From IMG/VR virus record IMGVR_UViG_3300037455_000543, positions 360,164 to 424,163 of that record: a DNA stretch of 64,000 nucleotides, one strand, 5' to 3'. This stretch comes from a virus (Duplodnaviria > Heunggongvirae > Uroviricota > Caudoviricetes). This document shows, in pieces, positions 17,964 to 63,956 of this stretch. Numbering within the stretch: position 1 is the stretch's first letter; every line of letters starts with the position of its first letter. Below the pieces are notes generated by a model that made no database searches, was not told the origin of the DNA, and was given only the letters and a program-made list of their open reading frames with translations. Made by a program: the position numbers and the translations under genes.

Positions 17964-18619
17964 TGAAAATAATGTTAGACATGGACGGTGTATTAACCGA
18001 TTATGATTCTTGGCTTGATTATCACAATGCAAGAAAAGAAAACGGTAAAACAAATTGGGGAAAAGTCGGAAAGATTGGTTCCTCATTTTGGTCTAATATG
18101 CCATGGAATTTAGAAGGTCATAAGCTTTATAATCTTATTCTTGATTATATAAAGGATAAACCTAATATTCAGTTAGGTATTCATTCAGCTATTGGAATGG
18201 AATGCGGTAAAGTTGGAAAACGTTACTGGTTAGAAAGAAATTGTCCTGAAATTTCTATGGATTTAGTAAAGCTGGATAATGACGGTCATTTTAAATATAG
18301 AACTGGTGCATTTGATGAAATTCTTGTCGATGATAGATTGCCAAATATTGAGTCTTATGTAGCTGCAGGATTTCCTGGAGTATTGTTTACCAATGCACAA
18401 GAAACGTTTGACGGTATTGTCAAGATTATCGATGATTATAAGAAACGACCTGATTATAAGGAAATTCTTAGATTATTGAAGAAAGAACGTGAATGTGTCA
18501 TTAGAGCAGAACATTGTGACAGGAATTGTGCTAAATGTGATTTAGTAGAAGACCCTGTAGCAGTTATTGCTATGTATGACAAGGTAATCGAAGCATATTC
18601 TAAATTGGTAGAAGTATGA
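17963..18619 (+). CDS. HAD-family 5'(3')-deoxyribonucleotidase-like
   Basis: LDMDGVL motif I, ILVDD motif IV. Confidence 0.8.
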   Translation: MKIMLDMDGVLTDYDSWLDYHNARKENGKTNWGKVGKIGSSFWSNMPWNLEGHKLYNLILDYIKDKPNIQLGIHSAIGMECGKVGKRYWLERNCPEISMDLVKLDNDGHFKYRTGAFDEILVDDRLPNIESYVAAGFPGVLFTNAQETFDGIVKIIDDYKKRPDYKEILRLLKKERECVIRAEHCDRNCAKCDLVEDPVAVIAMYDKVIEAYSKLVEV

Positions 18620-19122
18620 AATTAAAATATAAAGAACTTTATAAACATGTTTTAAAAGAATATCAGCAATTTAGTAAGTGTGCCAGATTACATGTAGCGG
18701 CATTGCTTGTCAATGACGGTAGAATTCTTTGTTGCGGTTATAATGGAACACCAGCAGGACAAATAAACTGTAATGAATTATTTAAAGGCGAAGTAATTAA
18801 TGGTGTATCACATTATTATTTGAGAGATAATCCATATGAAGAATGGCGTGAGACCGATGAACAAGATTGGCGAGCTGCGCATCATGAATTCGCTAACAAG
18901 AACGAATTGCATGCTGAACAAAACCTTCTTGGTCAATGCTTACAAAAGAATATTAATGTAACAGACTGTTCTATTGTAATATCTCATGAACCGTGTGAAA
19001 GTTGCGCAAGGTTAATTCTTGCGGCAGGTATTAAACATGTGCTATATGTTGACAAGTATGACCGAGGTTCACGGGGAATTGAGTTCCTCACGGCAAACGG
19101 GGTAAAAGTAGAGCAGTTCTAA
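18616..19122 (+). CDS. cd: dCMP deaminase
   Basis: GYNGTP, HAE, PCESC zinc motifs. Confidence 0.9.
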   Translation: MKLKYKELYKHVLKEYQQFSKCARLHVAALLVNDGRILCCGYNGTPAGQINCNELFKGEVINGVSHYYLRDNPYEEWRETDEQDWRAAHHEFANKNELHAEQNLLGQCLQKNINVTDCSIVISHEPCESCARLILAAGIKHVLYVDKYDRGSRGIEFLTANGVKVEQF

Positions 19123-27964: not shown

Positions 27965-28300
27965 TTGAACCACATATTAAAGTCTGATTCCTCGGAACGA
28001 AGACCAACTCAATGGAATTGTCGGTAGAGGGTTAGCCATTTTATATCTGGGTTCAAGGTATACTTGAACGGTTTTAGGCCGTTAAATGAATGAACAGTGA
28101 CGTATAGATTAGCAACCTATACATATAGCCGCCATGGCTTGACATGATATAGCCGAAGTACAGGATGACCGCCTCGTAAGCATGTCAGTAAGTCCCAAGA
28201 GATTGACACCATGAAGCTTTATGCCAAAAGTGACCAATCGCCTAGTTCCTGCTAGGCTTAGATCTCTCCCAATCGCATTATCCAAAAGAATGATGTTTAT
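27965..28300 (+). ncRNA. candidate structured non-coding RNA
   Basis: Follows hairpin-promoter; no credible ORF, raised GC, several hairpins. Confidence 0.4.
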
Positions 28301-52488: not shown

Positions 52489-52551
52489 ATGCAATTAGTA
52501 GTAACAACAAACGTAACACCAGTCAATAATCCAAAGGTAACTTTCGATTAG
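52489..52551 (+). CDS. leader peptide 1 MQLVVTTNVTPVNNPKVTFD
   Basis: GAGG SD; V5 T4 N3 P2; precedes terminator and Asn/Pro/Thr/Met/Val tRNAs. Confidence 0.85.
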   Translation: MQLVVTTNVTPVNNPKVTFD

Positions 52552-53059: not shown

Positions 53060-53705
53060 CATGGTGAGGGGCGTGCTCTGTCGAAAGGCAACACGAGCAA
53101 GGAACTAAATTCTTTACCCAAGCGGAAAGTAATTTCCGCCGGAGACTGTGCTTAAGTCGATTAATAATCGATATGGCGTCGGTAAAGTTGTCAGGAATAA
53201 ATACGCCAAGAGATTGGGTACCTGACATTAGTACGTTCTGGCGGTGAGGCTCACCAGCCCTGTAGAATGGGGTTGCGACAAAACCGAGGCGTGAGCTAAG
53301 GCACGACGCGGAAATACAGGTGCTTATCTTCATCGAGATTAGCATTATGATCTGGGCAAGACCTATAGCGATAATCGTACAGTGCATGTCACGAATACAT
53401 CTACAACTTTCACCCTGTGGGCCGATAGCAATGTGACCCTCCAAGTTGCTTACTTACTTGTTCCGAAAGTAAAACTCTGGAAATATTCCGCCAGTTGTCC
53501 AAAAGGAAACATGAGTTCCAACGCGGTGTATAGAGAAATCTATGAAACTTAGGCGCAGGAGGTTCGTTACCTGGTTACGAAAGTACGGAAATAACGTAAC
53601 GCTTTGTAATTGAAGCGAATTATTTGTTAGCGAGTGTAAAATGCGATTTATAAGATCTATCGCTTACATGAGTTAATAAATTAAGTTTGACAAACACAAT
53701 TACAT
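53060..53705 (+). ncRNA. candidate large structured ncRNA (~630 nt)
   Basis: GC-richer, no credible ORF, many hairpins, between tRNAs. Confidence 0.55.
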
Positions 53706-53710
53706 TTTTT

Positions 53711-53783
53711 GCTGGTGTAGCTCAATTGGCAGAGCAGCTGATTTGTAATCAGCAGGTTGTAGGTTCGATTCCTATCACCAGCT
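53711..53783 (+). tRNA. tRNA-Thr(TGT)
   Basis: Canonical cloverleaf. Confidence 0.95.
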
Positions 53784-53918
53784 CTAATAAATACTGTTAG
53801 GCGTTATTTAGAAGCTGCAGACTCTTTATAGTGCTAAATCGGGTGTAACACGTAAGATCAGTTACAGTAAGAGCTGGTATAATCAAAGACCTCCAGTAAC
53901 AGTAAATTTTGAATTTGA

Positions 53919-53993
53919 TGCGGCCGAGTGAAACGGAAAATCATTCAAGGCTCATAACCTTCGAGATACTGGGTTCGACTCCCTGGACCGCGA
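53919..53993 (+). tRNA. tRNA-Met(CAT), initiator-like, atypical
   Basis: AAGG-CTCATAA-CCTT; weak 1:72 pair; some stem mismatches. Confidence 0.7.
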
Positions 53994-54204
53994 CTAAAAT
54001 ATACTTAAGCGCAAGTGCCTTTTAACGGACGCACCATTTTAAGGACTGAGAGCTGGGATAACGTTCGGGAATGCGTAAACGCCCTAGTTCGACAACGTAT
54101 AGAGCTAAACCTCTTGTATAGGGTAAAACCGATGTATACTACGTTTAGTGAGCGCTGAATTCACATAAGGGACGTGGTGTGAAGAGTATATCTTTTGAAT
54201 TTAT

Positions 54205-54364: not shown

Positions 54365-54423
54365 TGGCATAGGAAGTTCCTATTTTTAAAATTAAATGGG
54401 TTAATTAGTATTACTTCCCGCCA
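54365..54423 (+). ncRNA. GC-AHA-N5-UUCCUA motif copy
   Basis: TGGC ATA GGAAG TTCCTA...TA CTTCC C GCCA. Confidence 0.7.
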
Positions 54424-54514
54424 AACTTTTAAAAGCCAGTCTACGGGAAAATAAAGAGTAGACCGTTACCCAGAAGCCTGACCACGAGCTGGGACTGTAT
54501 CAAAGTGGTCATAA

Positions 54515-54590
54515 CTCTCCTTCGCCTAGCTGGTTTATGGCACCTGTCTTACAAACAGGAACAACCTTGGTTCAAATCCAAGAGGGGAGA
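54515..54590 (+). tRNA. tRNA-Val(TAC)
   Basis: CCTGT-CTTACAA-ACAGG; full cloverleaf. Confidence 0.85.
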
Positions 54591-54597
54591 TAAAAAT

Positions 54598-54710
54598 AGC
54601 ATAGGTAGTTCCTATTATCAAACGTGTAGCTCAGTGGTTAGAGCGTCGGGAGCAATCTCGGAGATCGTTGGTTCGAGTCCAATCATGTTTACCAGAAGTA
54701 CTACCCGCTA
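54598..54710 (+). ncRNA. UUCCUA motif enclosing an anticodon-less tRNA-like RNA (54620-54694)
   Basis: Acceptor, D and T arms canonical; anticodon loop replaced by GCAA tetraloop; ends ACCA. Confidence 0.75.
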
Positions 54711-54722
54711 TAAAGTTTACAT

Positions 54723-54837
54723 GCGGAAAGTAGCTCAATTGGTAGAGCAGAAGTATTATGTTACTACCCGCTACACGCAAAGGTTGTTCCTATTAATGGG
54801 GAACTTTGGGTTGTAGGTTCGAATCCTGCCTTTCCGC
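54723..54837 (+). tRNA. tRNA body (Pro/His-like) with permuted UUCCUA motif inserted in anticodon loop
   Basis: Acceptor, D and T arms intact; ~48-nt insert between GAAGT and ACTTT. Confidence 0.7.
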
Positions 54838-54843
54838 CGAAAC

Positions 54844-54930
54844 TGGCATATGAAGTTCCTATTTTTGGAAATCCTAGTATTATCTTCGGATAAGAAGGGA
54901 TAAGGTTCAAATCCTTTTTACTTCTCGCCA
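54844..54930 (+). ncRNA. UUCCUA motif copy enclosing a T-arm
   Basis: TGGC ATA TGAAG TTCCTA...AAGG-TTCAAAT-CCTT...TA CTTCT C GCCA. Confidence 0.7.
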
Positions 54931-54990
54931 AATTAAAATTTAACAAAAACGGAAAAACAAAAAACATAAATAAACAAAAGAGAAAATAAA

Positions 54991-55056
54991 ATGACTTACG
55001 TTATGAACACAAATAATACCAACCCTAATAATAACCCTGAGGTGCTACAGGATTAG
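54991..55056 (+). CDS. leader peptide 2 MTYVMNTNNTNPNNNPEVLQD
   Basis: N7 T3 P2; precedes terminator and Asn/Pro/Thr tRNAs. Confidence 0.85.
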   Translation: MTYVMNTNNTNPNNNPEVLQD

Positions 55057-55089
55057 TTTTGTTTCATAACTAGATGAATTTTTAAACTG

Positions 55090-55131
55090 AATCCTGTAAG
55101 ACCTTTGAGACTTACAGGATTTTTTATTTTT
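55090..55131 (+). terminator. attenuator terminator 2
   Basis: AATCCTGTAAG/CTTACAGGATT + T-run; competitor TACAGGATTAGTTT (55046-55059) pairs with 55084-55098. Confidence 0.9.
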
Positions 55132-55207
55132 GTTTACTAGCTTAACTGGCAGAGCGCTTCCCGTGGCCACGGGTGAGAGATATTCGGTTCGACTCCATTG
55201 TAAACAG
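55131..55207 (+). tRNA. tRNA-like RNA with Asn-type acceptor and no anticodon loop
   Basis: TGTTTAC/GTAAACA-G; arm CCCGT-GGCC-ACGGG; weak T-stem. Confidence 0.6.
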
Positions 55208-55215
55208 CTACTTAT

Positions 55216-55303
55216 TCCACGGTACTCTAACTGGTAAGAGGCCTGGCTGTTAACCAGGTGTATGGTGTAAAAACCTATGGAGGTTCGAATCCTTCCCGTG
55301 GAG
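55216..55303 (+). tRNA. tRNA-Asn(GTT) with long variable arm
   Basis: CCTGG-CTGTTAA-CCAGG; U1-A72, G73; ~20-nt variable arm. Confidence 0.85.
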
Positions 55304-55311
55304 CTAAATAT

Positions 55312-55395
55312 TGGTAGGTACCCGAGTGGTAGCAGGGGGGAGACTGTTAATCTCTTGACGAAAGTCCGCCGCAGGTTCGAATCCTGCCCTATCAG
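55312..55395 (+). tRNA. tRNA-Asn(GTT) with Tyr-like class II body
   Basis: GGAGA-CTGTTAA-TCTCT; GAC-GAAA-GTC variable arm; G73. Confidence 0.85.
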
Positions 55396-55404
55396 CTAAA
55401 ATAA

Positions 55405-55478
55405 CGGAGTGTAGCGCAGATGGTCAGCGTGTTTGCTTTGGAAGCATAAGGTCGTTGGTTCGAATCCAACCACTCCGA
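55405..55478 (+). tRNA. tRNA-Pro(TGG)
   Basis: Cloverleaf, TTTGGAA loop. Confidence 0.9.
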
Positions 55479-55486
55479 TAAATTAA

Positions 55487-55560
55487 CAGGGTGTAACTCA
55501 GTTGGTTAGAGAGCTCGCCTCGGATGCGAGGGGTCGCTGGTTCGAGTCCAGCCATCCTGA
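55487..55560 (+). tRNA. tRNA-Pro(CGG)
   Basis: CTCGC-CTCGGAT-GCGAG. Confidence 0.9.
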
Positions 55561-55653
55561 TAAAATATAAAGTGCGCAGGAGACATACTAGCCGTAGGGG
55601 CTAGAGAAGTTATATCCAGACGGAGGTCGGATAGATGGTGGAATTGCGATAAT

Positions 55654-55726
55654 CAGAATGTAGCTCAGCTGGCAGAGCGCACCGTTCGGGGCGGTGAGGT
55701 CGGAGGATCATAACCTCTCATTCTGA
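55654..55726 (+). tRNA. tRNA-Pro(CGG), atypical T-loop
   Basis: CACCG-TTCGGGG-CGGTG; T-loop ATCATAA. Confidence 0.8.
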
Positions 55727-55737
55727 CTAAAATTTTT

Positions 55738-55803
55738 GGCACAGGTCGTTCCTATGAGCTCGTAGAGCAGCAAATTGTTAATTTGAAGTATTTACGACCC
55801 GCC
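55738..55803 (+). ncRNA. UUCCUA motif enclosing D-arm-like hairpin + Asn anticodon stem-loop
   Basis: GGC ACA GGTCG TTCCTA...CAAA-TTGTTAA-TTTG...TA CGACC C GCC. Confidence 0.75.
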
Positions 55804-55806
55804 TTT

Positions 55807-55879
55807 GCTGGAGTAATTCAACTGGTAGAATAGCGGTTTAGTAATCCGCAAGTTGTAGGTTCGAGTCCTATCTCCAGCT
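55807..55879 (+). tRNA. tRNA-Thr(AGT)
   Basis: GCGGT-TTAGTAA-TCCGC; Thr-type acceptor. Confidence 0.85.
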
Positions 55880-55886
55880 CTATAAT

Positions 55887-55959
55887 GCCGGAATGGCGCA
55901 ATTGGTAGCGCAGCTCTTCCGTAATGAGATGGTTGGGTGTTCGAGTCACTCTTTCGGCG
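55887..55959 (+). tRNA. tRNA-Thr(CGT), atypical (C33)
   Basis: Loop TCCGTAA; weak anticodon stem. Confidence 0.7.
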
Positions 55960-56010
55960 TATCATTAGAAAGGATTGACAATAGTCAATTCTTTTTCTAT
56001 ATTATAAATC

Positions 56011-56613
56011 ATGATGCAATTAATAGTTATATCGAGTTTCGCTACAGCTGCAATAATTGCTGCATATTATTTCGGCATAGGTTTACTTTATAAGTATAGA
56101 GCAGGAGTATCAAAAATTCTAGCCTTTATAGTCTTTTTCTCGATTATAGGTTATAGAATGTATAGGGATTATCAAGATGAAAAGATTGTGGAATCAGCAT
56201 TGACTGAAATAACTACCGAAATAGATAATGCTGAAAAGAACATGATGTCAGATAAGGATTTTCATGAGTTCGTAGCAAAATCAATATCTCAGAAAGATGG
56301 CGTAAGTTTAAATATTATTCCGCAAATCGATACGGCAATCTTGAAAATTAATAAGATTTATCAGAATGTATTAAATGATCCGGATTTTAAGATTATGATA
56401 ACGAGCGCAAATGATTCTAAGTCACATTCAAAGAATTCGGCACATTATCGAGGACAAGCAGTAGATATAAGGATAAAGAATATTAACCATAGACATAAGA
56501 ATGAAATTATTGCAGCGATTAAGGAAATCTTAGGTGATAGGTTTTTGGTTCTCCATGAAGACAAGGGAAAACCAAATGAGCATTTGCATGTTCAGTTGAA
56601 GAACAATGGTTGA
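56011..56613 (+). CDS. membrane-anchored peptidase M15-family (endolysin-like)
   Basis: Two N-terminal TM helices; ITS...SAHYRGQAVDI...EHLHVQ zinc motifs. Confidence 0.8.
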   Translation: MMQLIVISSFATAAIIAAYYFGIGLLYKYRAGVSKILAFIVFFSIIGYRMYRDYQDEKIVESALTEITTEIDNAEKNMMSDKDFHEFVAKSISQKDGVSLNIIPQIDTAILKINKIYQNVLNDPDFKIMITSANDSKSHSKNSAHYRGQAVDIRIKNINHRHKNEIIAAIKEILGDRFLVLHEDKGKPNEHLHVQLKNNG

Positions 56614-56683
56614 TGGAAAGGGTTGACGAATGTCAGTCCTTTTTTTATATTATACGTATTAACAACAAATAACAGAGGAAAAA

Positions 56684-57586
56684 ATGAAAAAAATTATCAA
56701 CTTCTTGTTTAACTATCTCACTAAGCGTGCGCAGAAAGCAAAACCTAAAGAAAAAAATATCTATAATGCAGCAGGTAAGGTAATTTTAAATTTCCATAAT
56801 CTTATCAATCCAGCTATAACTACATATGAATATGATGAGGAAGGCCGTGAGATTTCAAATAAGTACATGTATAATGGTCATTTAAGTTCCATGACCAAGG
56901 GTGAAGTTATGGAAGACGGCCGGTTTAAAGAAACACGTATTACTTTCCCTGATAAGTCTAATAAACTTGAAGAAAAAGAAGTCGTTGTTTATTATACTTC
57001 TCCTGATAGGTCTACTCTTTATGATGAAAATTATCAGACTGTTCGAATGGAAGAAGTTGAAAATGATGAAAATGGTCGTGCTATTAAAAATGAAACGCGG
57101 TTGTATGATGACGGTAAGCTTCGTGCAACAGAAGTTCATCACTACCAATATGACGAACGTGGAAATCGAACTAAGATCGATGGTAAGACTACTGAAGCTG
57201 ATGACAGCATTAAATATATTTCTTCCTCCGAATATAATTATGATGAAAATAATTTAATGGTTCATAGAATTGAAACATTCAAAGCTATGACTAAAGACCA
57301 CATCTCTGATGATGAAACTCAATATCATTGTCAATATGATGAACAAGGTCGTGAAATTAGATGTTTAACTTATGAATGGGACCGTATTCGTGCAAGGTCT
57401 GACAGGTCTTGTCGTGATCATTTCTATTTCGGTGATGATGAAATTGAAGTATATAATCACATTACTTTGAATTTCATGATTACTACTTATGTTAAGAAAG
57501 TAACTAGGTCTGATGGTTCTAGGGTTGAAACTGAATGGTATTTGCCTAACTGGTTTGGTAAACTGCTGGTTTGGTGCTTACGTTAA
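56684..57586 (+). CDS. YD-repeat-like protein
   Basis: Repeated YEYDEEGR / YQYDERGN / YNYDENN / QYDEQGR. Confidence 0.7.
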   Translation: MKKIINFLFNYLTKRAQKAKPKEKNIYNAAGKVILNFHNLINPAITTYEYDEEGREISNKYMYNGHLSSMTKGEVMEDGRFKETRITFPDKSNKLEEKEVVVYYTSPDRSTLYDENYQTVRMEEVENDENGRAIKNETRLYDDGKLRATEVHHYQYDERGNRTKIDGKTTEADDSIKYISSSEYNYDENNLMVHRIETFKAMTKDHISDDETQYHCQYDEQGREIRCLTYEWDRIRARSDRSCRDHFYFGDDEIEVYNHITLNFMITTYVKKVTRSDGSRVETEWYLPNWFGKLLVWCLR

Positions 57587-57604
57587 TTTAAAAAGGAATA
57601 TAAT

Positions 57605-59738
57605 ATGACATACGAAGAATTAGTCAGTGATGAACGTTATGGTAAAATCTTGAAGCGTTGCCAAGAATTACCTATTGGAAAAGTTCTTGCATCTAATATC
57701 GATGATGCTTGGCCAGATTTGCCTGAAGAACTGCGCGAAGTACATGATGCTTATTACAATCCTAATGAACATTATTATGACTCTATTATCGATGTTATCG
57801 ATGACTATTTCTTGTATGTTGAAGAAGATATTACAGAAGAAAGTAAGAATAAAGTCCTCGATTATGCAATGAATCTTAAGGATATTAATCTTGTCTTCTT
57901 TGATGAATCTACGAAGGAATAAATTATGAATTATAATCTTTCAAGACTTCCGGGAACATACGAATTTGACCGGGAACAATTCGGCTTCAAGATAAATTCA
58001 AAGGTTTACAATGCACAAGAATACAGTTCTATTACGAACTGTTTTAGAGTTGTAGATATTAAGAAGAAAGACAAGTATATTGAAGCAGTGGATGTTATTG
58101 AAAATGGTAAAATGCATTCTGATAAGGATGACAAGTATTTTCATAAATGTGCAGACTATATGGTTAATTCGCCATTATATTATGATACTACGATTGGACT
58201 TTATAAGCCTACCCAGAATTATATTCATCTTATGACAAAGCTTGTTTTTAGAAAGATGATTATTGCATACCTTAAGAAAGAAGAAGATGTAGAAGTAGTT
58301 GAAAAATTGACAAATGAAAAACAGTTTAAAACTACATTTGTAATTAAGAATACTGAAGTTTTTAATGACCTTCATGAATATTTCTATGACTGGTATGTTA
58401 ATAAGACTTGTTCATATGAAGATTTTTTGAATAAAAATATAAGCAAGATTGGAAAAACCAATTATTTGATGCCTAGCACTGATAAGTATAAGATTGATCC
58501 TAATCATCCTGTAGAATTTTCAAATATAGCAGACGGACTTGATTGTGCAGATGTATATACTGCTTATCTTAATTTAATTAATCGTATTAAACAAATCTAT
58601 AATCAAATTGAATGGAAAGAACAAGAAAAGAATAAAAAGTTCAAAGCTGTAGTAATTTTAACTGTTTAAGGAAATAATTATGCCAAGATATGCGAAGAAA
58701 GGATGTACAAGAGCAGATATTATTGAAAAGATGCTTGACCAGCTTAAAGCAGATGGCGGGTATGATGAGGATATGGATGAAACCGACTCTGAACAAGTAA
58801 TTCAGCAGTGGCTTTATAATTGTGTTGCATATAGTGACATGAATCCTCAGATAGAAAAAGACTTGTCAAAGCTCGAATTTGATTGGGAAAATTCAGAAGA
58901 AGATTTTGAAAGTCAAAAATATGGAAAGCTTCCGGATGGAACATCGATTATCTGGTGTTTTGCAGGTGGAGATTGGGAGTTCCCTATTCATTTTGCCGTT
59001 TATATTGACGATAAGGACCATCTGAGAGCTTATATGCCGTTAGACGGTAATGTATATTGTCCAAAGTGTAAATGTGCTTACGGCTCATGCGAGGACGAAG
59101 AACATGAGCCTGAGGAAGAGCCTACGCCAGATTGGGAAAAGATGTATGCTGCGGCATGCAAACGAATTGAAACACGATAAGGTATAAAATATGAAATGTG
59201 CGATTTGTCAAGATCGATATGATACATTAAGTTGTCGTATTACAATGAGTAATGATAATCAAAGGCGTGATCCACAATATGATATGATTGTGTGCGAGAA
59301 CTGTTATTATAAGATTCTTGAAAAAATTATATTGATGGACCCAATAAATAAACGCTTAAATAAAGAAGAACACGTATGATGTCAACAATAAATACAGTTG
59401 TATTAATTTTAAGTATAATTGATATTCTGATTTTTTTATTTGCTCTTTTTAATTTCTTCTGTGCATTTTTCTGCAAAGGCGCAGATCGATTTGGGGTAAT
59501 TTTTCTCGGTATAGTAGCTACAATTTCCGCAATTGCTGGTTATGTAAGATTGCCAGACAAAGATGAACGTGTAGCATTATTTATGCAGATGAAGCCAAAA
59601 TGTGAGCATGAAACAGTTAAATGTTTAGAAGCAAAAGCAAGATGGTATAAAGACTCAATAGAATATAATATACGAGATACTACAGAAATTATAGATTCTA
59701 TTAAACAGGTTATAGATAAATATAAAACTGAGAAATAG
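57605..59738 (+). CDS. five hypothetical genes
   Basis: Coupled ORFs with SD. Confidence 0.6.
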
Positions 59739-59776
59739 GGTTTACAAAAGTAAAACAATTTACTATATTTAACATC

Positions 59777-59837
59777 GTTAAAGCAAAAAATGTTCCTATG
59801 ATGATATTTGCAAAATAGTTTTACATTTCGCTTTAAC
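59777..59837 (+). ncRNA. UUCCUA motif copy with TAT-TTGCAAA-ATA anticodon-like loop
   Basis: GTTAAAGC AAA AAATG TTCCTA...TA CATTT C GCTTTAAC directly after a promoter. Confidence 0.7.
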
Positions 59838-59842
59838 ACATC

Positions 59843-59953
59843 GGGGAAATAGCTCAGTGGTAGAGCAACGGTATTACGTTACGTAGTGATGCATATAACG
59901 TTCCTATTTCCATTTCAAGGCGTGTGTCGTAGGTTCGAGTCCTACTTTCCCCA
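59843..59953 (+). tRNA. tRNA body with permuted UUCCUA motif inserted in anticodon loop
   Basis: Perfect acceptor/D/T arms; insert TA CGTTA C GTA-GTGA-TGC ATA TAACG TTCCTA. Confidence 0.75.
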
Positions 59954-60067
59954 CTAAAAAATATTTTAAAAAGGGGTTGACAAACCAAAAACTTTTTACT
60001 ATATTTAACAACGTAAAATAACAAAAAACAGGAAAAATTTTTTATATATAATATAAAGGTAACGAAA

Positions 60068-60181
60068 ATGACTATGAACGTATTTGAACATGAATTTTTT
60101 GCAGCAGAACGTGCCGCAGCTGAATTCGCAGCTGCAGCGTTTGAAGCATTTTGTTCAGATACAGTGCATAGGATTAGGTAG
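60068..60181 (+). CDS. leader peptide 3 MTMNVFEHEFFAAERAAAEFAAAAFEAFCSDTVHRIR
   Basis: A10 F6 E5; precedes terminator and Glu/Ala/Phe tRNAs. Confidence 0.9.
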   Translation: MTMNVFEHEFFAAERAAAEFAAAAFEAFCSDTVHRIR

Positions 60182-60206
60182 TTAACCTAAATAAGTTTGA
60201 AAAAAC

Positions 60207-60241
60207 GGTTCCTGTGCACAAAGCGCAGGAACTTTTCTTTT
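60207..60241 (+). terminator. attenuator terminator 3
   Basis: GGTTCCTGTGC/GCGCAGGAACT + T-run; competitor GTGCATAGGA (60164-60173) pairs with 60210-60219. Confidence 0.9.
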
Positions 60242-60292
60242 ATACTTTGCTGGTAGTCCAGTAGTGGAGACACCACTTAAAAAACAACATTT

Positions 60293-60365
60293 GCTCCGTT
60301 CGGCCAGCGGTTCAAGCCAACCGACTTTCTATCGGTTAACCCCAGTTCGAATCTGGGACGGAGTA
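60293..60365 (+). tRNA. tRNA-Glu(TTC)
   Basis: ACCGA-CTTTCTA-TCGGT. Confidence 0.85.
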
Positions 60366-60375
60366 CTAAAAATTT

Positions 60376-60447
60376 GGGTCATTAGTATAATGGTAGTATC
60401 TCTGATTTGCACTCAGAGGGCATCGGTTCGAATCCGATATGTATCCA
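60376..60447 (+). tRNA. tRNA-Ala(TGC), bulged acceptor
   Basis: TCTGA-TTTGCAC-TCAGA; G3.U70. Confidence 0.8.
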
Positions 60448-60456
60448 CGAAAATTT

Positions 60457-60529
60457 GGGACTGTAGCTCAGTAGGTAGAGCGTTGGCCTGAAGAGCCAAG
60501 CGTCGTAGGTTCGATTCCTACCGGTCCCG
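60457..60529 (+). tRNA. tRNA-Phe(GAA)
   Basis: TTGGC-CTGAAGA-GCCAA. Confidence 0.9.
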
Positions 60530-60537
60530 CTAAATAT

Positions 60538-60611
60538 GGGCTTGTGGCGCAATTTGGTAGCGCAGTAGCTTTGCAAGCTAAAGGTTACGGGATCGTTCCC
60601 CGTCAGGTCCA
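60538..60611 (+). tRNA. tRNA-Ala(TGC)
   Basis: TAGC-TTTGCAA-GCTA; G3.U70. Confidence 0.85.
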
Positions 60612-60620
60612 CTACATTAT

Positions 60621-60693
60621 GCCTCGGCATCCAATCGTGGGAATGGACGGGACTGAAAATCCCAGAAATCCGGTTCGACTCCGGAACCTGGCA
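60621..60693 (+). tRNA. tRNA-Phe(GAA), atypical acceptor
   Basis: GGGA-CTGAAAA-TCCC; good T-arm, poor acceptor pairing. Confidence 0.65.
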
Positions 60694-60704
60694 CTAAACA
60701 TTAT

Positions 60705-60777
60705 GGGCTCGCATGATCCAAGGAGGCGACCGGTCCTTGCAAGACTAGTGTGGTGAGTTCGATTCTCATCGGGTCCA
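60705..60777 (+). tRNA. tRNA-Ala(TGC), atypical D-arm
   Basis: GGTC-CTTGCAA-GACT; G3.U70. Confidence 0.8.
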
Positions 60778-60789
60778 CTAAAATTTTTC

Positions 60790-60863
60790 GGCGCTGTCGA
60801 ATAACTGGTTCAGTTCACCGGCCTTTCAAGTCGGAAATTCGGGTTCGAGTCCCGACAGCGCTA
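60790..60863 (+). tRNA. tRNA-Glu(TTC)
   Basis: CCGGC-CTTTCAA-GTCGG. Confidence 0.9.
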
Positions 60864-60874
60864 CTAAAATATAT

Positions 60875-60947
60875 GGGTTCGCATGATCCAAGGAGGCGAG
60901 CTGGCTTTGCAAGCCGGCTGAGGTGGATTCGATTTCCACCGGATCCA
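60875..60947 (+). tRNA. tRNA-Ala(TGC), atypical D-arm
   Basis: CTGGC-TTTGCAA-GCCGG; G3.U70; D region identical to 60705 copy. Confidence 0.8.
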
Positions 60948-61114
60948 CGAAAGTCTACGGGTGGTGCCATTACTGTAGGCAAAGCATAGAAATATGCTGG
61001 TGATGAAGGAACAATACAACATAGGTTTAAATGCGCCTTGAGTATCAAGACCTAAAATTGGCTGAGAATCACGACGAAGTTTTGTGTCTTCGTAGGAATA
61101 AAAAACACATTTAT

Positions 61115-61188
61115 GGCTCTATCGTCTACGCTGGTTAGGACGCTAGGTTTTCAACCTGGTAAATTTGGTTCGACACCAAATAGGGCTA
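61115..61188 (+). tRNA. tRNA-Glu(TTC)
   Basis: CTAGG-TTTTCAA-CCTGG. Confidence 0.9.
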
Positions 61189-61193
61189 CTAAT

Positions 61194-61269
61194 GGGGGCT
61201 ATGGTTTAATTACCGCTCTTGGGCATAGTGATTTCCTACTTTTAATTGGTTCGAATCCAATTGCCTCCA
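61194..61269 (+). ncRNA. Ala-type acceptor+T-arm minihelix fused to permuted UUCCUA motif
   Basis: GGGGGC/GCCTCC-A with G3.U70; AATTGG-TTCGAAT-CCAATT; TA ATTAC C GC..GC ATA GTGAT TTCCTA. Confidence 0.7.
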
Positions 61270-61367
61270 CTAAAAATCTTGAGGGTCTAAAGTGAAGCCT
61301 GCTTAGACACGTATCAAAGAGATGATAAAAGACTGGTTGGATTCCAGTTGGATCCTTAAGAAATCAT

Positions 61368-61440
61368 GGTTCTATCGTCTAGTGGCCAAGGACAGTCGGT
61401 TCTCAGCCGCCTTACTTCAGTTCGAATCTGAATAGAACTA
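61368..61440 (+). tRNA. tRNA-Glu(CTC)
   Basis: CGG-TTCTCAG-CCG; Glu-type D arm. Confidence 0.8.
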
Positions 61441-61464
61441 CTATTCCATTAAAGGAAGTATTAT

Positions 61465-61794
61465 ATGATAACAGTGACACAAATTAACGATTTAAGAAAA
61501 GAGACTCAGGTTAGCATGCTTCTTTGTAAGCAAGCTCTTGAAGCAACAGGTGGTGATTTCGATGCTGCAAAAAAGTGGCTTCGTGAACAAGGTAAAGAAG
61601 TTGCTGGGGATTCATCTGCTTTTGGATTCACATTGATTAAAAATGGACAAGTTTCTGAACAGAGTACAGATAATAAGTTCACTTATTCCGACGGCCATAC
61701 AAGTATAGATATTCGCAATTATGGAGGTTCTACACCTTATACCATATGGGGCGGAATAACTGGACAGATAGTCCTTAATCCCGTAAAAGTATAA
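61465..61794 (+). CDS. protein with EF-Ts N-terminal (UBA-like) domain
   Basis: ITVTQINDLRKETQVSMLLCKQALEATGGDFDAAKKWLREQG. Confidence 0.8.
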   Translation: MITVTQINDLRKETQVSMLLCKQALEATGGDFDAAKKWLREQGKEVAGDSSAFGFTLIKNGQVSEQSTDNKFTYSDGHTSIDIRNYGGSTPYTIWGGITGQIVLNPVKV

Positions 61795-61869
61795 TATATA
61801 ATTAATTCTATTAAAAAGGGTTGACAAATGTCAACCTTTTTCTATATTATATAAAAAATATCATAAAGG

Positions 61870-62406
61870 ATGGTTAGACGCAGAATGATTAAACCATGTG
61901 ATTTTATACGTTGTTGTAAAAAGGTTTTTGGCGAGGCAAATTGTACATTTACAAATACGGTAGGAACGTCAGAACCATATTATATAACTTGTATTGTAGA
62001 GAATAAGGAAGTTGCACATTTAGCTGTATATAGTAATATTTTGTCATCTTTATGCCGTGTATACATAGATAATTGTGAAAATATTGTAAATTATAAAATT
62101 ACATTATATTATTATCTTTTAAAAGCAAATAAGGCATTAAAGTCAGTTCGACAAAAATTATTTAAAATTTATAGGACTATTGATTCTGAATTTCCAGATG
62201 AAAATTTAAATGATACTGTGAAATTAACAATTCAATATCTTACTAATGTTGAATTTGAGACAGAAGAAAAAGTTCAAAAATTATTTAAAGATTTATTTGA
62301 TAGCACATGTCACAACAATCCTAAAATTAGAGAAAAACTTATTTTAGATATGTTCGAATTTTATGCTAATATGGTAAAGATTAATAAGATTAAAGAAGTT
62401 GAATAA
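61870..62406 (+). CDS. hypothetical protein
   Basis: ORF behind hairpin-promoter at ~61815-61848. Confidence 0.6.
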   Translation: MVRRRMIKPCDFIRCCKKVFGEANCTFTNTVGTSEPYYITCIVENKEVAHLAVYSNILSSLCRVYIDNCENIVNYKITLYYYLLKANKALKSVRQKLFKIYRTIDSEFPDENLNDTVKLTIQYLTNVEFETEEKVQKLFKDLFDSTCHNNPKIREKLILDMFEFYANMVKINKIKEVE

Positions 62407-62407
62407 T

Positions 62408-62440
62408 AAAAAAACCAGGTCATTAACCTGGTTTTATTTT
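62408..62440. terminator. bidirectional intrinsic terminator
   Basis: AAAACCAGGT/ACCTGGTTTT between convergent genes. Confidence 0.8.
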
Positions 62441-62454
62441 TAAATTCAATTTAA

Positions 62455-62790
62455 TTAATAAAACTCATCTACTGTTTTATCTGCAAGTTTATTTTGAACA
62501 CAGGCATCAGTCGTGCACTTAGCAAACTCAATACCATCTTCGTATACAATATCTGCCGTTTTTATGCTAGTATTATATTTTATAGCAAGGTCATTAGGCA
62601 ATTCTAAATTTTTATAACCATTGATAAAGAGTAGACGAAAATCATTATAATCGCTATCATCCCAATATTTATAATTACGGTCCCAAAGTTCATCAAAAAT
62701 GTCTTGCGGCGTATATGTAAAACCTCTGGTTTCGTTTATAACTTGATATCCATATTTATTAAGTATTTTTTTGGCTTCATTTAAATTCAT
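62455..62790 (-). CDS. hypothetical late-expressed protein
   Basis: AAGGAG SD and TATAAATA (minus strand 62816-62823), the T4 late promoter consensus. Confidence 0.75.
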   Translation of the reverse strand: MNLNEAKKILNKYGYQVINETRGFTYTPQDIFDELWDRNYKYWDDSDYNDFRLLFINGYKNLELPNDLAIKYNTSIKTADIVYEDGIEFAKCTTDACVQNKLADKTVDEFY

Positions 62791-62938
62791 TTGGTGTTCT
62801 CCTTAAATTATATATTATTTATAAAAAATTAATTTAAGGGGTTTACAAAAAGAAAATAAATTACTATATTTAACATCGTTAAAACAAAAAACAAAAACAG
62901 GAAAAAATTTTTTATATATAATATAAAGGTTAAGAAAA

Positions 62939-63040
62939 ATGACTAAGTTTGTAGTTGACACTCATGATTGCAAGACTCGCCGCGACGGACGAGGTTTCGG
63001 CAAGCATGATAAGGATCGTTACCTACACAGGGTCATCTAG
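62939..63040 (+). CDS. leader peptide 4 MTKFVVDTHDCKTRRDGRGFGKHDKDRYLHRVI
   Basis: D5 R5 K4 G3 H3; precedes terminator and Asp/Arg/Lys/Gly tRNAs. Confidence 0.85.
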   Translation: MTKFVVDTHDCKTRRDGRGFGKHDKDRYLHRVI

Positions 63041-63065
63041 TATTAAACTGTATAAAGTTTTAAAG

Positions 63066-63103
63066 AATGATTCCTGTGTAAAAACGGGAATCATTTTTTA
63101 TTT
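63066..63103 (+). terminator. attenuator terminator 4
   Basis: AATGATTCCTGT/ACGGGAATCATT + T-run; competitor TACACAGGGTCAT (63024-63036) pairs with 63067-63080. Confidence 0.85.
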
Positions 63104-63177
63104 GGTCTCATTGCCTAGTGGTCTAAGGCGCTGGTCTGTCTAACCAGTTTTCGTGAGTTCGAATCTCACTGGGATCG
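63104..63177 (+). tRNA. tRNA-Asp(GTC)
   Basis: CTGGT-CTGTCTA-ACCAG; G73. Confidence 0.85.
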
Positions 63178-63188
63178 CTACAAACAAA

Positions 63189-63251
63189 ATAGCATAAGAA
63201 GTTCCTATTAAAAAATACAGACTGCAAATCCGTTAATATACTTCTCGCTAT
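63189..63251 (+). ncRNA. UUCCUA motif copy with Cys-type (CTGCAAA) anticodon loop
   Basis: ATAGC ATA AGAAG TTCCTA...ACAGA-CTGCAAA-TCCGT...TA CTTCT C GCTAT. Confidence 0.7.
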
Positions 63252-63331: not shown

Positions 63332-63339
63332 TTAAATAT

Positions 63340-63419
63340 ACACCAGTAGCCGAGCCTGACTACGAATCAGGTACACGTAACTGGAGCTGAAAATGCAGGT
63401 TCGAACCCTGTCTGGTGTA
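63340..63419 (+). tRNA. tRNA-Arg(ACG) with rearranged D region
   Basis: Perfect acceptor, CCTGA-CTACGAA-TCAGG and T-arm; only 8 nt before anticodon arm, 23 nt after. Confidence 0.7.
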
Positions 63420-63430
63420 CTAAAAAATAT

Positions 63431-63865: not shown

Positions 63866-63876
63866 CTAAAATATAA

Positions 63877-63947
63877 GCACCTATGGTGTACAAGTAGCAA
63901 GTCGCATTGCCTGTGCGAAGGAGACGGGGCAGTACCGTCTAGGTGCT
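63877..63947 (+). tRNA. tRNA-Gly(GCC), atypical T-loop
   Basis: TCGCA-TTGCCTG-TGCGA; T-loop GGCAGTA; U73. Confidence 0.75.
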
Positions 63948-63956
63948 CTAAAAATT

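What the first reader, a model, noticed from the sequence alone, without database searches (positions are those of the whole stretch)
54365..63251. Nine copies of a covarying RNA module (GC-AHA-N5-UUCCUA ... UA-N5'-C-GC) fused to tRNA parts
Direct copies at 54365, 54598, 54844, 55738, 59777, 63189; permuted copies inside 54723, 59843, 61194. The 5-bp stem covaries (GGAAG/CTTCC, GGTAG/CTACC, GGTCG/CGACC, AAATG/CATTT, AGAAG/CTTCT, TAACG/CGTTA, GTGAT/ATTAC) while the AHA/C internal loop, UUCCUA and UA stay fixed. The cargo is tRNA-derived: an anticodon stem-loop (GTT, GCA, possibly TGG), D-arm+anticodon arm, a T-arm or a whole tRNA body. I do not recognise it as a known family. Inference: a protein-binding tag or small ribozyme presenting tRNA fragments, e.g. 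decoys for anticodon nucleases or a tRNA splicing/assembly device.
Basis: partly seen in the sequence, partly recalled or inferred. Interest (0 to 1): 0.88.

Follow-up and report, generated by a model that had tools for sequence, protein, structure and literature searches.

The report
Protein-docking RNA handle displaying tRNA parts
A giant rumen phage carries 13 copies of an undescribed small RNA "handle", each attached to a different piece of tRNA; across phages and bacteria the handle travels with one uncharacterised protein gene, sometimes beside RNA-repair genes, which suggests an RNA-protein particle that shields or repairs tRNA during phage-host conflict.

Summary
Observation confirmed. 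All nine copies are real (shuffles: 0.007 expected). The module is a 6-bp covarying helix, a 3x1 internal loop and an outer stem. It matches no Rfam family. The 424-kb jumbo phage has 13 copies. One is the 5' leader of an unnamed 655-aa protein (helical N-part, TerD-like C-domain) outside the window. That protein family is the partner: 120 of 151 homologous loci carry the module within 1 kb upstream. In Chryseobacterium 37 genomes have both, 23 neither, and the cassette follows rtcB. Cargoes are tRNA parts: canonical mini anticodon loops (30 of 215 vs 2.8 by chance; mostly Lys, Ser, Asn), anticodon-less bodies, T-arms and YrlA-order mimics. Best reading: a protein-binding handle of a Ro60/Y-RNA-like particle that presents tRNA baits, probably decoys for tRNA-attacking enzymes. 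It is not a Y RNA by its defining motif, and no Ro60 likeness was detected. Binding and function are inferred, not shown. Ribozyme or intron readings are unlikely. This scan noted what is probably the same or a sister system on other DNA (e1-4657586, e1-1954852, e1-5617884).

The parts
54365..54423 (+). Copy 1, direct module (halves 54367-54382 and 54412-54421); cargo a weak A/U hairpin 54390-54406 whose loop holds UGG (Pro-like; loop letters conserved in L069)
54596..54711 (+). Copy 2, direct module enclosing a whole tRNA body (54620-54694) with an encoded CCA; anticodon loop replaced by a 4-nt loop (ARAGORN mis-calls it tRNA-Leu). Same build in L069 and L084
54723..54837 (+). Copy 3, tRNA body whose anticodon loop is replaced by the permuted module (54762-54792, one U-U mismatch)
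   Evidence: same build in Chryseobacterium, Tenacibaculum and a planctomycete
54844..54930 (+). Copy 4, direct module (one U-U mismatch); cargo a UUCG hairpin (54880-54893) and a T-arm (54902-54916)
   Evidence: same build in L224
55738..55803 (+). Copy 5, direct module; cargo D-arm (55758-55768) plus anticodon stem-loop GUU/Asn (55771-55785); orthologues read GCU (L069) and GGU (L095)
59741..59769 (+). Promoter-like site (TTTACA-17-TATATT) directly before copies 6 and 7, which look like their own two-RNA unit
   Evidence: consensus match only
59776..59838 (+). Copy 6, direct module with a long outer stem and an A/U-rich loop that is not conserved
   Evidence: (z -3.45)
59843..59954 (+). Copy 7, tRNA body with a 3-bp anticodon stem, permuted module (59875-59906) and a mini hairpin 59910-59920 with UUC (CUC in L069; both Glu); ends CCA
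61194..61270 (+). Copy 8, acceptor stem plus T-arm minihelix; the permuted module (61207-61238) replaces the D and anticodon arms; ends CCA
   Evidence: (weak tmRNA hit)
63189..63251 (+). Copy 9, direct module; cargo a mini anticodon stem-loop GCA/Cys (63220-63230); the leader peptide of this operon contains a Cys codon

Best explanation
The module is the RNA binding site ('handle') of a dedicated ~600-650-aa protein with a helical N-part and a TerD-like C-domain (here G000:19596-21563, outside the window). Each copy is a small RNA processed from the phage tRNA operons. The protein clamps the handle, stabilises the RNA and displays a tRNA part: an anticodon loop, D+anticodon arm, T-arm/elbow, or a body with a CCA end. 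None of these RNAs looks like a working tRNA. The displayed parts most likely act as baits or competitive decoys for host enzymes that attack tRNA (anticodon nucleases, possibly CCA-end toxins), as one arm of an anti-tRNA-depletion programme that also includes about 55 tRNA-like genes and three kinds of RNA ligase. The copy in the gene's own leader probably gives autoregulation. Shown: structure by covariation, gene linkage, tRNA-derived cargo, RNA-repair context. Inferred: direct binding (about 0.85), stable discrete RNAs (about 0.75), decoy role rather than tether or sensor role (about 0.55 given binding).
For: Covariation without selecting for pairing: 137 of 166 distinct copies pair 5/5 vs 17% on shuffling (max 25%); mutual information lies on the diagonal; G-U pairs are tolerated. 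Motif-first: 15 of about 29 viral loci with a true module carry the gene next to it; 6 of the other 14 contigs carry it elsewhere, the rest being fragments of 4-46% completeness. Gene-first: 120 of 151 loci have the module within 1 kb upstream, 246 copies vs 3 inside the gene and 1 antisense. Chryseobacterium: 37 both, 23 neither, 1 RNA-only genome that holds a truncated start of the gene. The cassette lies directly after rtcB there, with RlaP downstream in several; PrfH and Rnl-type ligases neighbour it elsewhere. Canonical CU-NNN-AM loops closed by 2 pairs: 30 of 215 distinct cargoes vs 2.8+-1.6 shuffled, mirror control 3 vs 2.9; top anticodons UUU 8, UGA 4, GUU 4. The N-part has a basic region (net +12 over residues 131-310) and 17 near-invariant K/R columns in residues 80-396. 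A decoy role was proposed for YrlA itself (PMC7790460).
Against: No binding, processing or activity data. Linkage in one cassette explains co-occurrence without proving binding, and Chryseobacterium genomes are not independent. Most cargoes (about 85%) are not canonical anticodon loops, and many Bacteroidales have only a single leader copy, which fits cis-regulation. RtcB lies within about 4 kb in only 9 of 158 protein-first loci, and is about 106 kb from the gene in this phage. The cassette is common in bacterial chromosomes, so it is not only a phage counter-defence. Unmodified decoys may be poor substrates for nucleases that need modified wobble bases (own knowledge). The permuted copies do not fold into the module unaided.
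Confidence: 0.5

Rival explanations
1. Y-RNA-like tether or repair platform: the protein binds the handle, and the tRNA-like cargo recruits tRNA-binding repair or decay enzymes (RtcB, RlaP, PNPase) or holds broken tRNA halves for ligation.
For: rtcB-RNAs-gene-rlaP order in Chryseobacterium parallels rsr-yrlBA-rtcBA. Bodies keep D and T loops but drop the anticodon, like YrlA. YrlA-order members exist. The phage encodes RtcB, Rnl1 and Rnl2.
Against: Does not explain the many minimal RNAs that carry only an anticodon loop with varied anticodons. RtcB is adjacent in a minority of loci.
Confidence: 0.25
2. Guard or sensor: the RNAs hold the protein inactive; cleavage of the bait loop by a tRNase releases it to signal or act, as in type III toxin-antitoxin arrays.
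For: Tandem arrays of short repeats directly before one gene. Bait-like loops. TerD domains occur in stress and anti-phage systems (PMC7824862).
Against: No nuclease, toxin or PADLOC match. The copies differ from each other and are dispersed over tRNA operons in this phage. The repeats are not identical pseudoknots.
Confidence: 0.1
3. Mainly a cis-regulatory operator (autogenous attenuator or RNA-stability element); the tRNA-operon copies only tune processing of the tRNA transcripts.
For: One leader copy in 55 of 151 loci. The last copy is followed by a U-tract within 16 nt in 76 of 110 loci (no background control). The leader copy of this phage lies between promoter and start codon.
Against: Does not explain tRNA-shaped cargo, arrays of up to 6, copies downstream of the gene, or stand-alone units with their own promoter (59741).
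Confidence: 0.07
4. Self-cleaving ribozyme or tRNA intron/splicing element.
For: Sits in tRNA arrays and at anticodon-loop positions; ARAGORN models some copies as introns; RtcB context.
Against: No Rfam ribozyme hit even at E 10. Only about 15 conserved nucleotides and no second conserved helix or pseudoknot. Excision leaves 3-bp stems or loops of non-canonical length. Tight linkage to one protein gene is not expected of a free ribozyme.
Confidence: 0.05
5. A DNA-level repeat or mobile element.
For: Multi-copy, associated with tRNA genes.
Against: Strand bias 246:1 relative to the gene, G-U pairs, conserved cargo types across distant phages, no transposase or integrase among recurrent neighbours.
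Confidence: 0.03

Closest known systems
Ro60 (Rsr) with Y RNAs YrlA/YrlB/Yrn1; rsr-yrlBA-rtcBA operon (PMC4201824; 10.1101/312249; PMC7790460; Rfam RF02553)
   Same: Modular RNA: terminal protein-binding stem with an asymmetric loop plus a tRNA-like domain; several RNAs encoded upstream of the protein gene on the same strand; RtcB neighbourhood; present in bacteria and phages; T-before-D permuted members in relatives (S-CRM01 element 35.9 bits to YrlA).
   Different: No GNCGAAN0-1G motif; no TROVE gene in the phage; the partner ends in a TerD-like, not a vWA, domain and shows no detectable Ro60 likeness. Cargo is far more varied and includes real anticodon loops, normal-order bodies and free CCA ends, which YrlA lacks.
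[quoted passage not shown]
   Same: tRNA-like non-coding RNA beside RtcB.
   Different: No Band-7 gene among neighbours of 158 loci (single-sequence query). I could not read the original paper, so an earlier mention of this RNA there is not excluded.
Prok-RING_4 (PF14447) / MXAN_6230-SCO0854-type helical+TerD proteins
   Same: Whole-model fold match TM 0.54 to an ESM Atlas cluster in which 21% carry PF14447; feature neighbours TerD and Prok-RING_4 at 0.82-0.89. From memory, Pfam describes these as helical + ROT/TROVE-like repeats + TerD, possibly RNA-processing.
   Different: No RING domain and no Pfam, NCBIfam or PHROG hit for this protein; I found no RNA partner described.
Phage tRNAs that counter anticodon nucleases (T4 Pnk/Rnl vs PrrC; T5 tRNAs vs PARIS and retron Eco7) - own knowledge
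   Same: Same conflict; the commonest cargo anticodon, Lys UUU, is the PrrC and AriB target.
   Different: Those are functional, cleavage-resistant tRNAs or repair enzymes; these RNAs look non-translating and protein-docked.

Membership tests
Y RNA / YrlA (RF02553) | GNCGAAN0-1G (or GGUCCGA) Ro-binding motif near the 5' end | tested here: not met
   0 of 9 window copies; 3 of 164 direct copies elsewhere
Y RNA / YrlA (RF02553) | Score above the Rfam gathering cut-off (69 bits) | tested here: not met
   best overlap with a window copy 19.4 bits; S-CRM01 member 35.9 bits
Y RNA / YrlA (RF02553) | Ro60/TROVE gene within 4 kb, same strand | tested here: not met
   PF05731: 0 hits in the complete phage genome, controls positive; 5 of 42 cellular assemblies with the partner gene have TROVE, on other contigs
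Y RNA / YrlA (RF02553) | Permuted tRNA domain (T-arm, closed acceptor, D-arm) held by the protein-binding stem | tested here: inconclusive
   absent from the nine window copies (normal order or fragments); present in relatives L005, L020, L029, L084/L224, L089, L129, L245, L283, L287
Y RNA / YrlA (RF02553) | 5' and 3' ends pair into a long stem; RNAs encoded upstream of the partner gene on the same strand | tested here: met
Y RNA / YrlA (RF02553) | Physical binding to the partner protein | not testable with these tools
   needs EMSA or pull-down
Ro60/TROVE protein (for the 655-aa partner) | HEAT-repeat ring | tested here: inconclusive
   Ro60 not among Foldseek or VIA rows for the full or N-terminal model; HHalign probability 0.3% against a shallow five-sequence TROVE profile
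Ro60/TROVE protein (for the 655-aa partner) | C-terminal vWA domain | tested here: not met
b7a-tRNA / Band-7 / RtcB system | Adjacent Band-7 gene | tested here: not met
   no Band-7 neighbour found in 158 loci with one query; the phage's own Band-7 gene is at G000:155 kb
Known self-cleaving ribozymes (hammerhead, HDV/theta, twister, pistol, hatchet, hairpin) | Match to the family's conserved core | tested here: not met
   no Rfam hit at gathering or at E<=10
Known self-cleaving ribozymes (hammerhead, HDV/theta, twister, pistol, hatchet, hairpin) | Self-cleavage | not testable with these tools
   needs in vitro assay
tRNA with intron | Excision restores a 5-bp stem and 7-nt anticodon loop | tested here: not met
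   by inspection of copies 3, 7, 8 and bacterial homologues with 3-bp stems and variable linkers
Type III toxin-antitoxin array | Near-identical pseudoknot repeats before a ToxN/AbiQ-type RNase | tested here: not met
   repeats differ in stem and cargo; no toxin family match

The most novel reading that the evidence does not exclude
A third, widespread class of tRNA-mimic ribonucleoprotein, independent of Ro60 and Band-7: one protein docks a programmable panel of RNAs that display chosen anticodon loops, elbows and CCA ends as decoys (or tripwires) for tRNA-targeting toxins, with the panel tuned to the anticodons under attack and used by both phages and bacteria.
Probability: 0.35. Interest if true: 0.9.

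Novelty: new variant of a known kind. Interest (0 to 1): 0.76.

Why it matters
tRNA cleavage is a main weapon of anti-phage defence, and known counters are repair enzymes or resistant tRNAs. A protein-docked panel of anticodon baits would be a different counter. It would also give a ligand and a role to a large unannotated protein family (1,103 clusters at 50% identity with E<=1e-30). The open question of what bacterial Y-like tRNA mimics do becomes testable in a simple form, because the minimal RNA is about 45 nt and cultured carriers exist (cyanophage S-CRM01, Chryseobacterium species). A small handle that accepts many cargoes could also be a new RNA tag.

Full report
Setting. The window is the last 64 kb of a complete 424,163-bp virus record with direct terminal repeats: a jumbo phage with 55 ARAGORN calls including a tmRNA, RtcB, Rnl1 and Rnl2 ligases. 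A cow-rumen-2 RNA and long matching contigs in bovine and sheep gut metatranscriptomes point to the rumen. The closest cellular hits of the partner gene are in Fibrobacter assemblies (50% identity); the host is not established.

Observation. All nine copies are present as described: six direct and three permuted. Shuffled sequence gives 0.007 complete modules per 12 kb. The module is an outer stem ending in G-C, C-G, then a loop of three bases (usually A-H-A) opposite one C, then a 6-bp helix closed by an invariant U-A, then UCCU and an A/U-rich single strand. Four more copies lie elsewhere in the genome, giving 13. Rfam has no family for it.

It is a widespread RNA family. A pattern scan of viral contigs returned 117 stretches before hitting its limit. 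About 29 held the true complementary module, often as tandem arrays of 2-6. To avoid circularity I picked left and right halves by fixed letters only: 137 of 166 distinct copies paired at all five variable positions, against 17% when partners were shuffled (maximum 25%), with mutual information on the diagonal (0.5-1.2 bits at four positions) and G-U pairs tolerated. A 53-row alignment gave 97% paired cells and covariation score 0.71 against 0.20 shuffled and at most 0.19 slid; those rows were pre-selected for pairing, so this is supportive only.

It has a partner gene. One copy (G000:19528) lies between a promoter-like site and the start of a 655-aa ORF (G000:19596-21563). Fifteen of the motif-positive viral loci carry a homologue directly beside the array. 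Of the 14 others tested, 6 contigs carry it elsewhere, including the only complete one; the rest are small fragments. In reverse, among 151 loci fetched by the protein, 113 (strict) or 120 (relaxed) have the module upstream on the same strand; 246 copies against 3 in the gene and 1 antisense. The model also finds it in 17 of 22 genomes or records whose fetched locus lacked a strict match. Carriers include Bacteroidota, Fibrobacter, a planctomycete, gammaproteobacteria, Bacillota, many phages, and the cultured cyanophage S-CRM01, which has five copies before the gene and one after. In 61 Chryseobacterium genomes, 37 have both, 23 neither, and the one RNA-only genome holds a truncated start of the gene. 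This is cassette linkage, not proof of binding.

The protein. The family is large and unannotated (2,379 hits; 1,103 clusters at 50% identity; no Pfam, NCBIfam, PHROG, PADLOC or PDB sequence match). AlphaFold2 gives pLDDT 86.7. Residues 430-598 are TerD-like. The helical N-part has no clear structural match, and no likeness to Ro60 was detected. The whole model matches an Atlas cluster partly annotated Prok-RING_4 (TM 0.54), a family that I recall Pfam describing as helical, ROT/TROVE-like and TerD; that recollection is untested. The N-part carries a basic region and many near-invariant K/R residues, compatible with RNA binding.

Neighbourhood. In Chryseobacterium the order is rtcB, usually a tRNA body with the permuted module in its anticodon arm, two or three direct copies, the gene, and often rlaP. 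rtcB is core there (60 of 61) and the cassette is accessory. Elsewhere PrfH, RNA ligases and kinase/phosphoesterase genes occur nearby, but RtcB is within about 4 kb in only 9 of 158 loci.

Cargo. The same cargo types recur in distant phages: a whole body with CCA and a 4-nt loop in place of the anticodon; a body with the module in the anticodon arm; T-arm; D-arm plus anticodon arm; T-before-D YrlA-order mimic; and minimal loops. Canonical 7-nt anticodon loops closed by two base pairs occur in 30 of 215 non-redundant cargoes, against 2.8+-1.6 in shuffles (maximum 11 in 2000); the mirror pattern is at background. The commonest are Lys UUU (8), Ser UGA (4), Asn GUU (4). Orthologues of copy 5 swap the middle anticodon base while keeping the loop frame. 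From my own knowledge, tRNA-Lys(UUU) is the target of PrrC and PARIS AriB, and Asn/Tyr/His/Asp tRNAs of colicin E5. In this phage several cargoes match amino acids of the leader peptide of their tRNA operon, which suggests they are co-induced when those tRNAs run short; that link is inferred and incomplete.

Expression. Contigs from RNA libraries of three rumen studies cover copies 1-4 and part of 9 (for example 54394-55127 with 8 differences). This is compatible with transcription but does not show it, nor ends or processing.

Mechanism. Best supported: a protein-binding handle (about 0.85) on small stable RNAs that present tRNA parts. For what the display does, I rank decoy for tRNA-attacking enzymes first (overall 0.5), then Y-like tether or repair platform (0.25), sensor (0.1), cis-regulation only (0.07), ribozyme or intron (0.05), DNA repeat (0.03). 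The first three are not exclusive. A competitive-inhibitor role was suggested for YrlA but not tested (PMC7790460).

Comparison. It works like Ro60 with Y RNAs: modular RNA, gene linkage, RtcB context (PMC4201824; 10.1101/312249). It is not a member: the Ro-binding motif, the Rfam score, a TROVE neighbour and the vWA domain all fail. It is not the Band-7 system by neighbourhood. I found no paper describing it, but could not read Burroughs and Aravind 2016. Earlier unchecked notes of this scan describe what is probably the same or a sister system in other genomes (e1-4657586, e1-1954852; e1-5617884). I had reached the Y-RNA-like reading before seeing them, and they are not independent support.

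Verdict. Real, conserved, apparently undescribed RNA family with a dedicated protein partner; new variant of the tRNA-mimic RNP kind; interest 0.76.

Noticed in passing
window 52489-52551, 54991-55056, 60068-60181, 62939-63040: Short leader ORFs rich in the amino acids of the tRNAs just downstream (V/T/N/P; N/T/P; F/E/A; K/D/H/R/G/C), each followed by a terminator-like hairpin: apparent attenuators of the tRNA operons.
   Followed up: partly
window 63339-63421: tRNA-Arg(ACG)-like gene with no clear D-arm and a long variable region, missed by ARAGORN and Rfam.
   Followed up: no
window 53920-53995, 55133-55212, 60622-60695, 60704-60780, 60875-60949, 63876-63949: Further odd tRNA-like genes not called by ARAGORN (two near-duplicate UGC/Ala types with unusual D-arms, a CAU type, others).
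   Followed up: no
window 61465-61794: 109-aa ORF whose N-terminus resembles the EF-Ts N-terminal/UBA domain (E 6.8e-7, below cut-off), inside the tRNA region; could bind EF-Tu.
   Followed up: no
window 28096-28200: cow-rumen-2 RNA (RF02947), 108.5 bits.
   Followed up: no
window 56011-56613 and 56684-57586: Peptidase M15/Hedgehog-like protein with an N-terminal membrane segment, and an RHS-repeat-like protein.
   Followed up: no
L118:9098-9919 (G000 18097-18918): Microbial-type PARG (ADP-ribose glycohydrolase) gene two genes before the partner gene; a GNAT acetyltransferase lies nearby.
   Followed up: no
G000 123310-128456: tmRNA gene (tag ANTYAMAA) about 3.6 kb upstream of rtcB; in relatives L025 and L078 a Ser-loop copy of the module lies upstream of rtcB on the same strand.
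   Followed up: partly
L287:2372-2835 (S-CRM01, HQ615693): Unannotated five-copy array before gene g174 in a cultured cyanophage, including a YrlA-order member; GenBank places a small reverse ORF (g173c) over it.
   Followed up: partly
L289:6068-6460 (phage Phass-1): Four copies with anticodon-like loops directly before a tmRNA gene, downstream of the partner gene.
   Followed up: no
window 53400-54200: Long non-coding stretch with the highest summed contig depth in rumen RNA libraries (partly cross-mapping tRNA); may hold another structured RNA.
   Followed up: no
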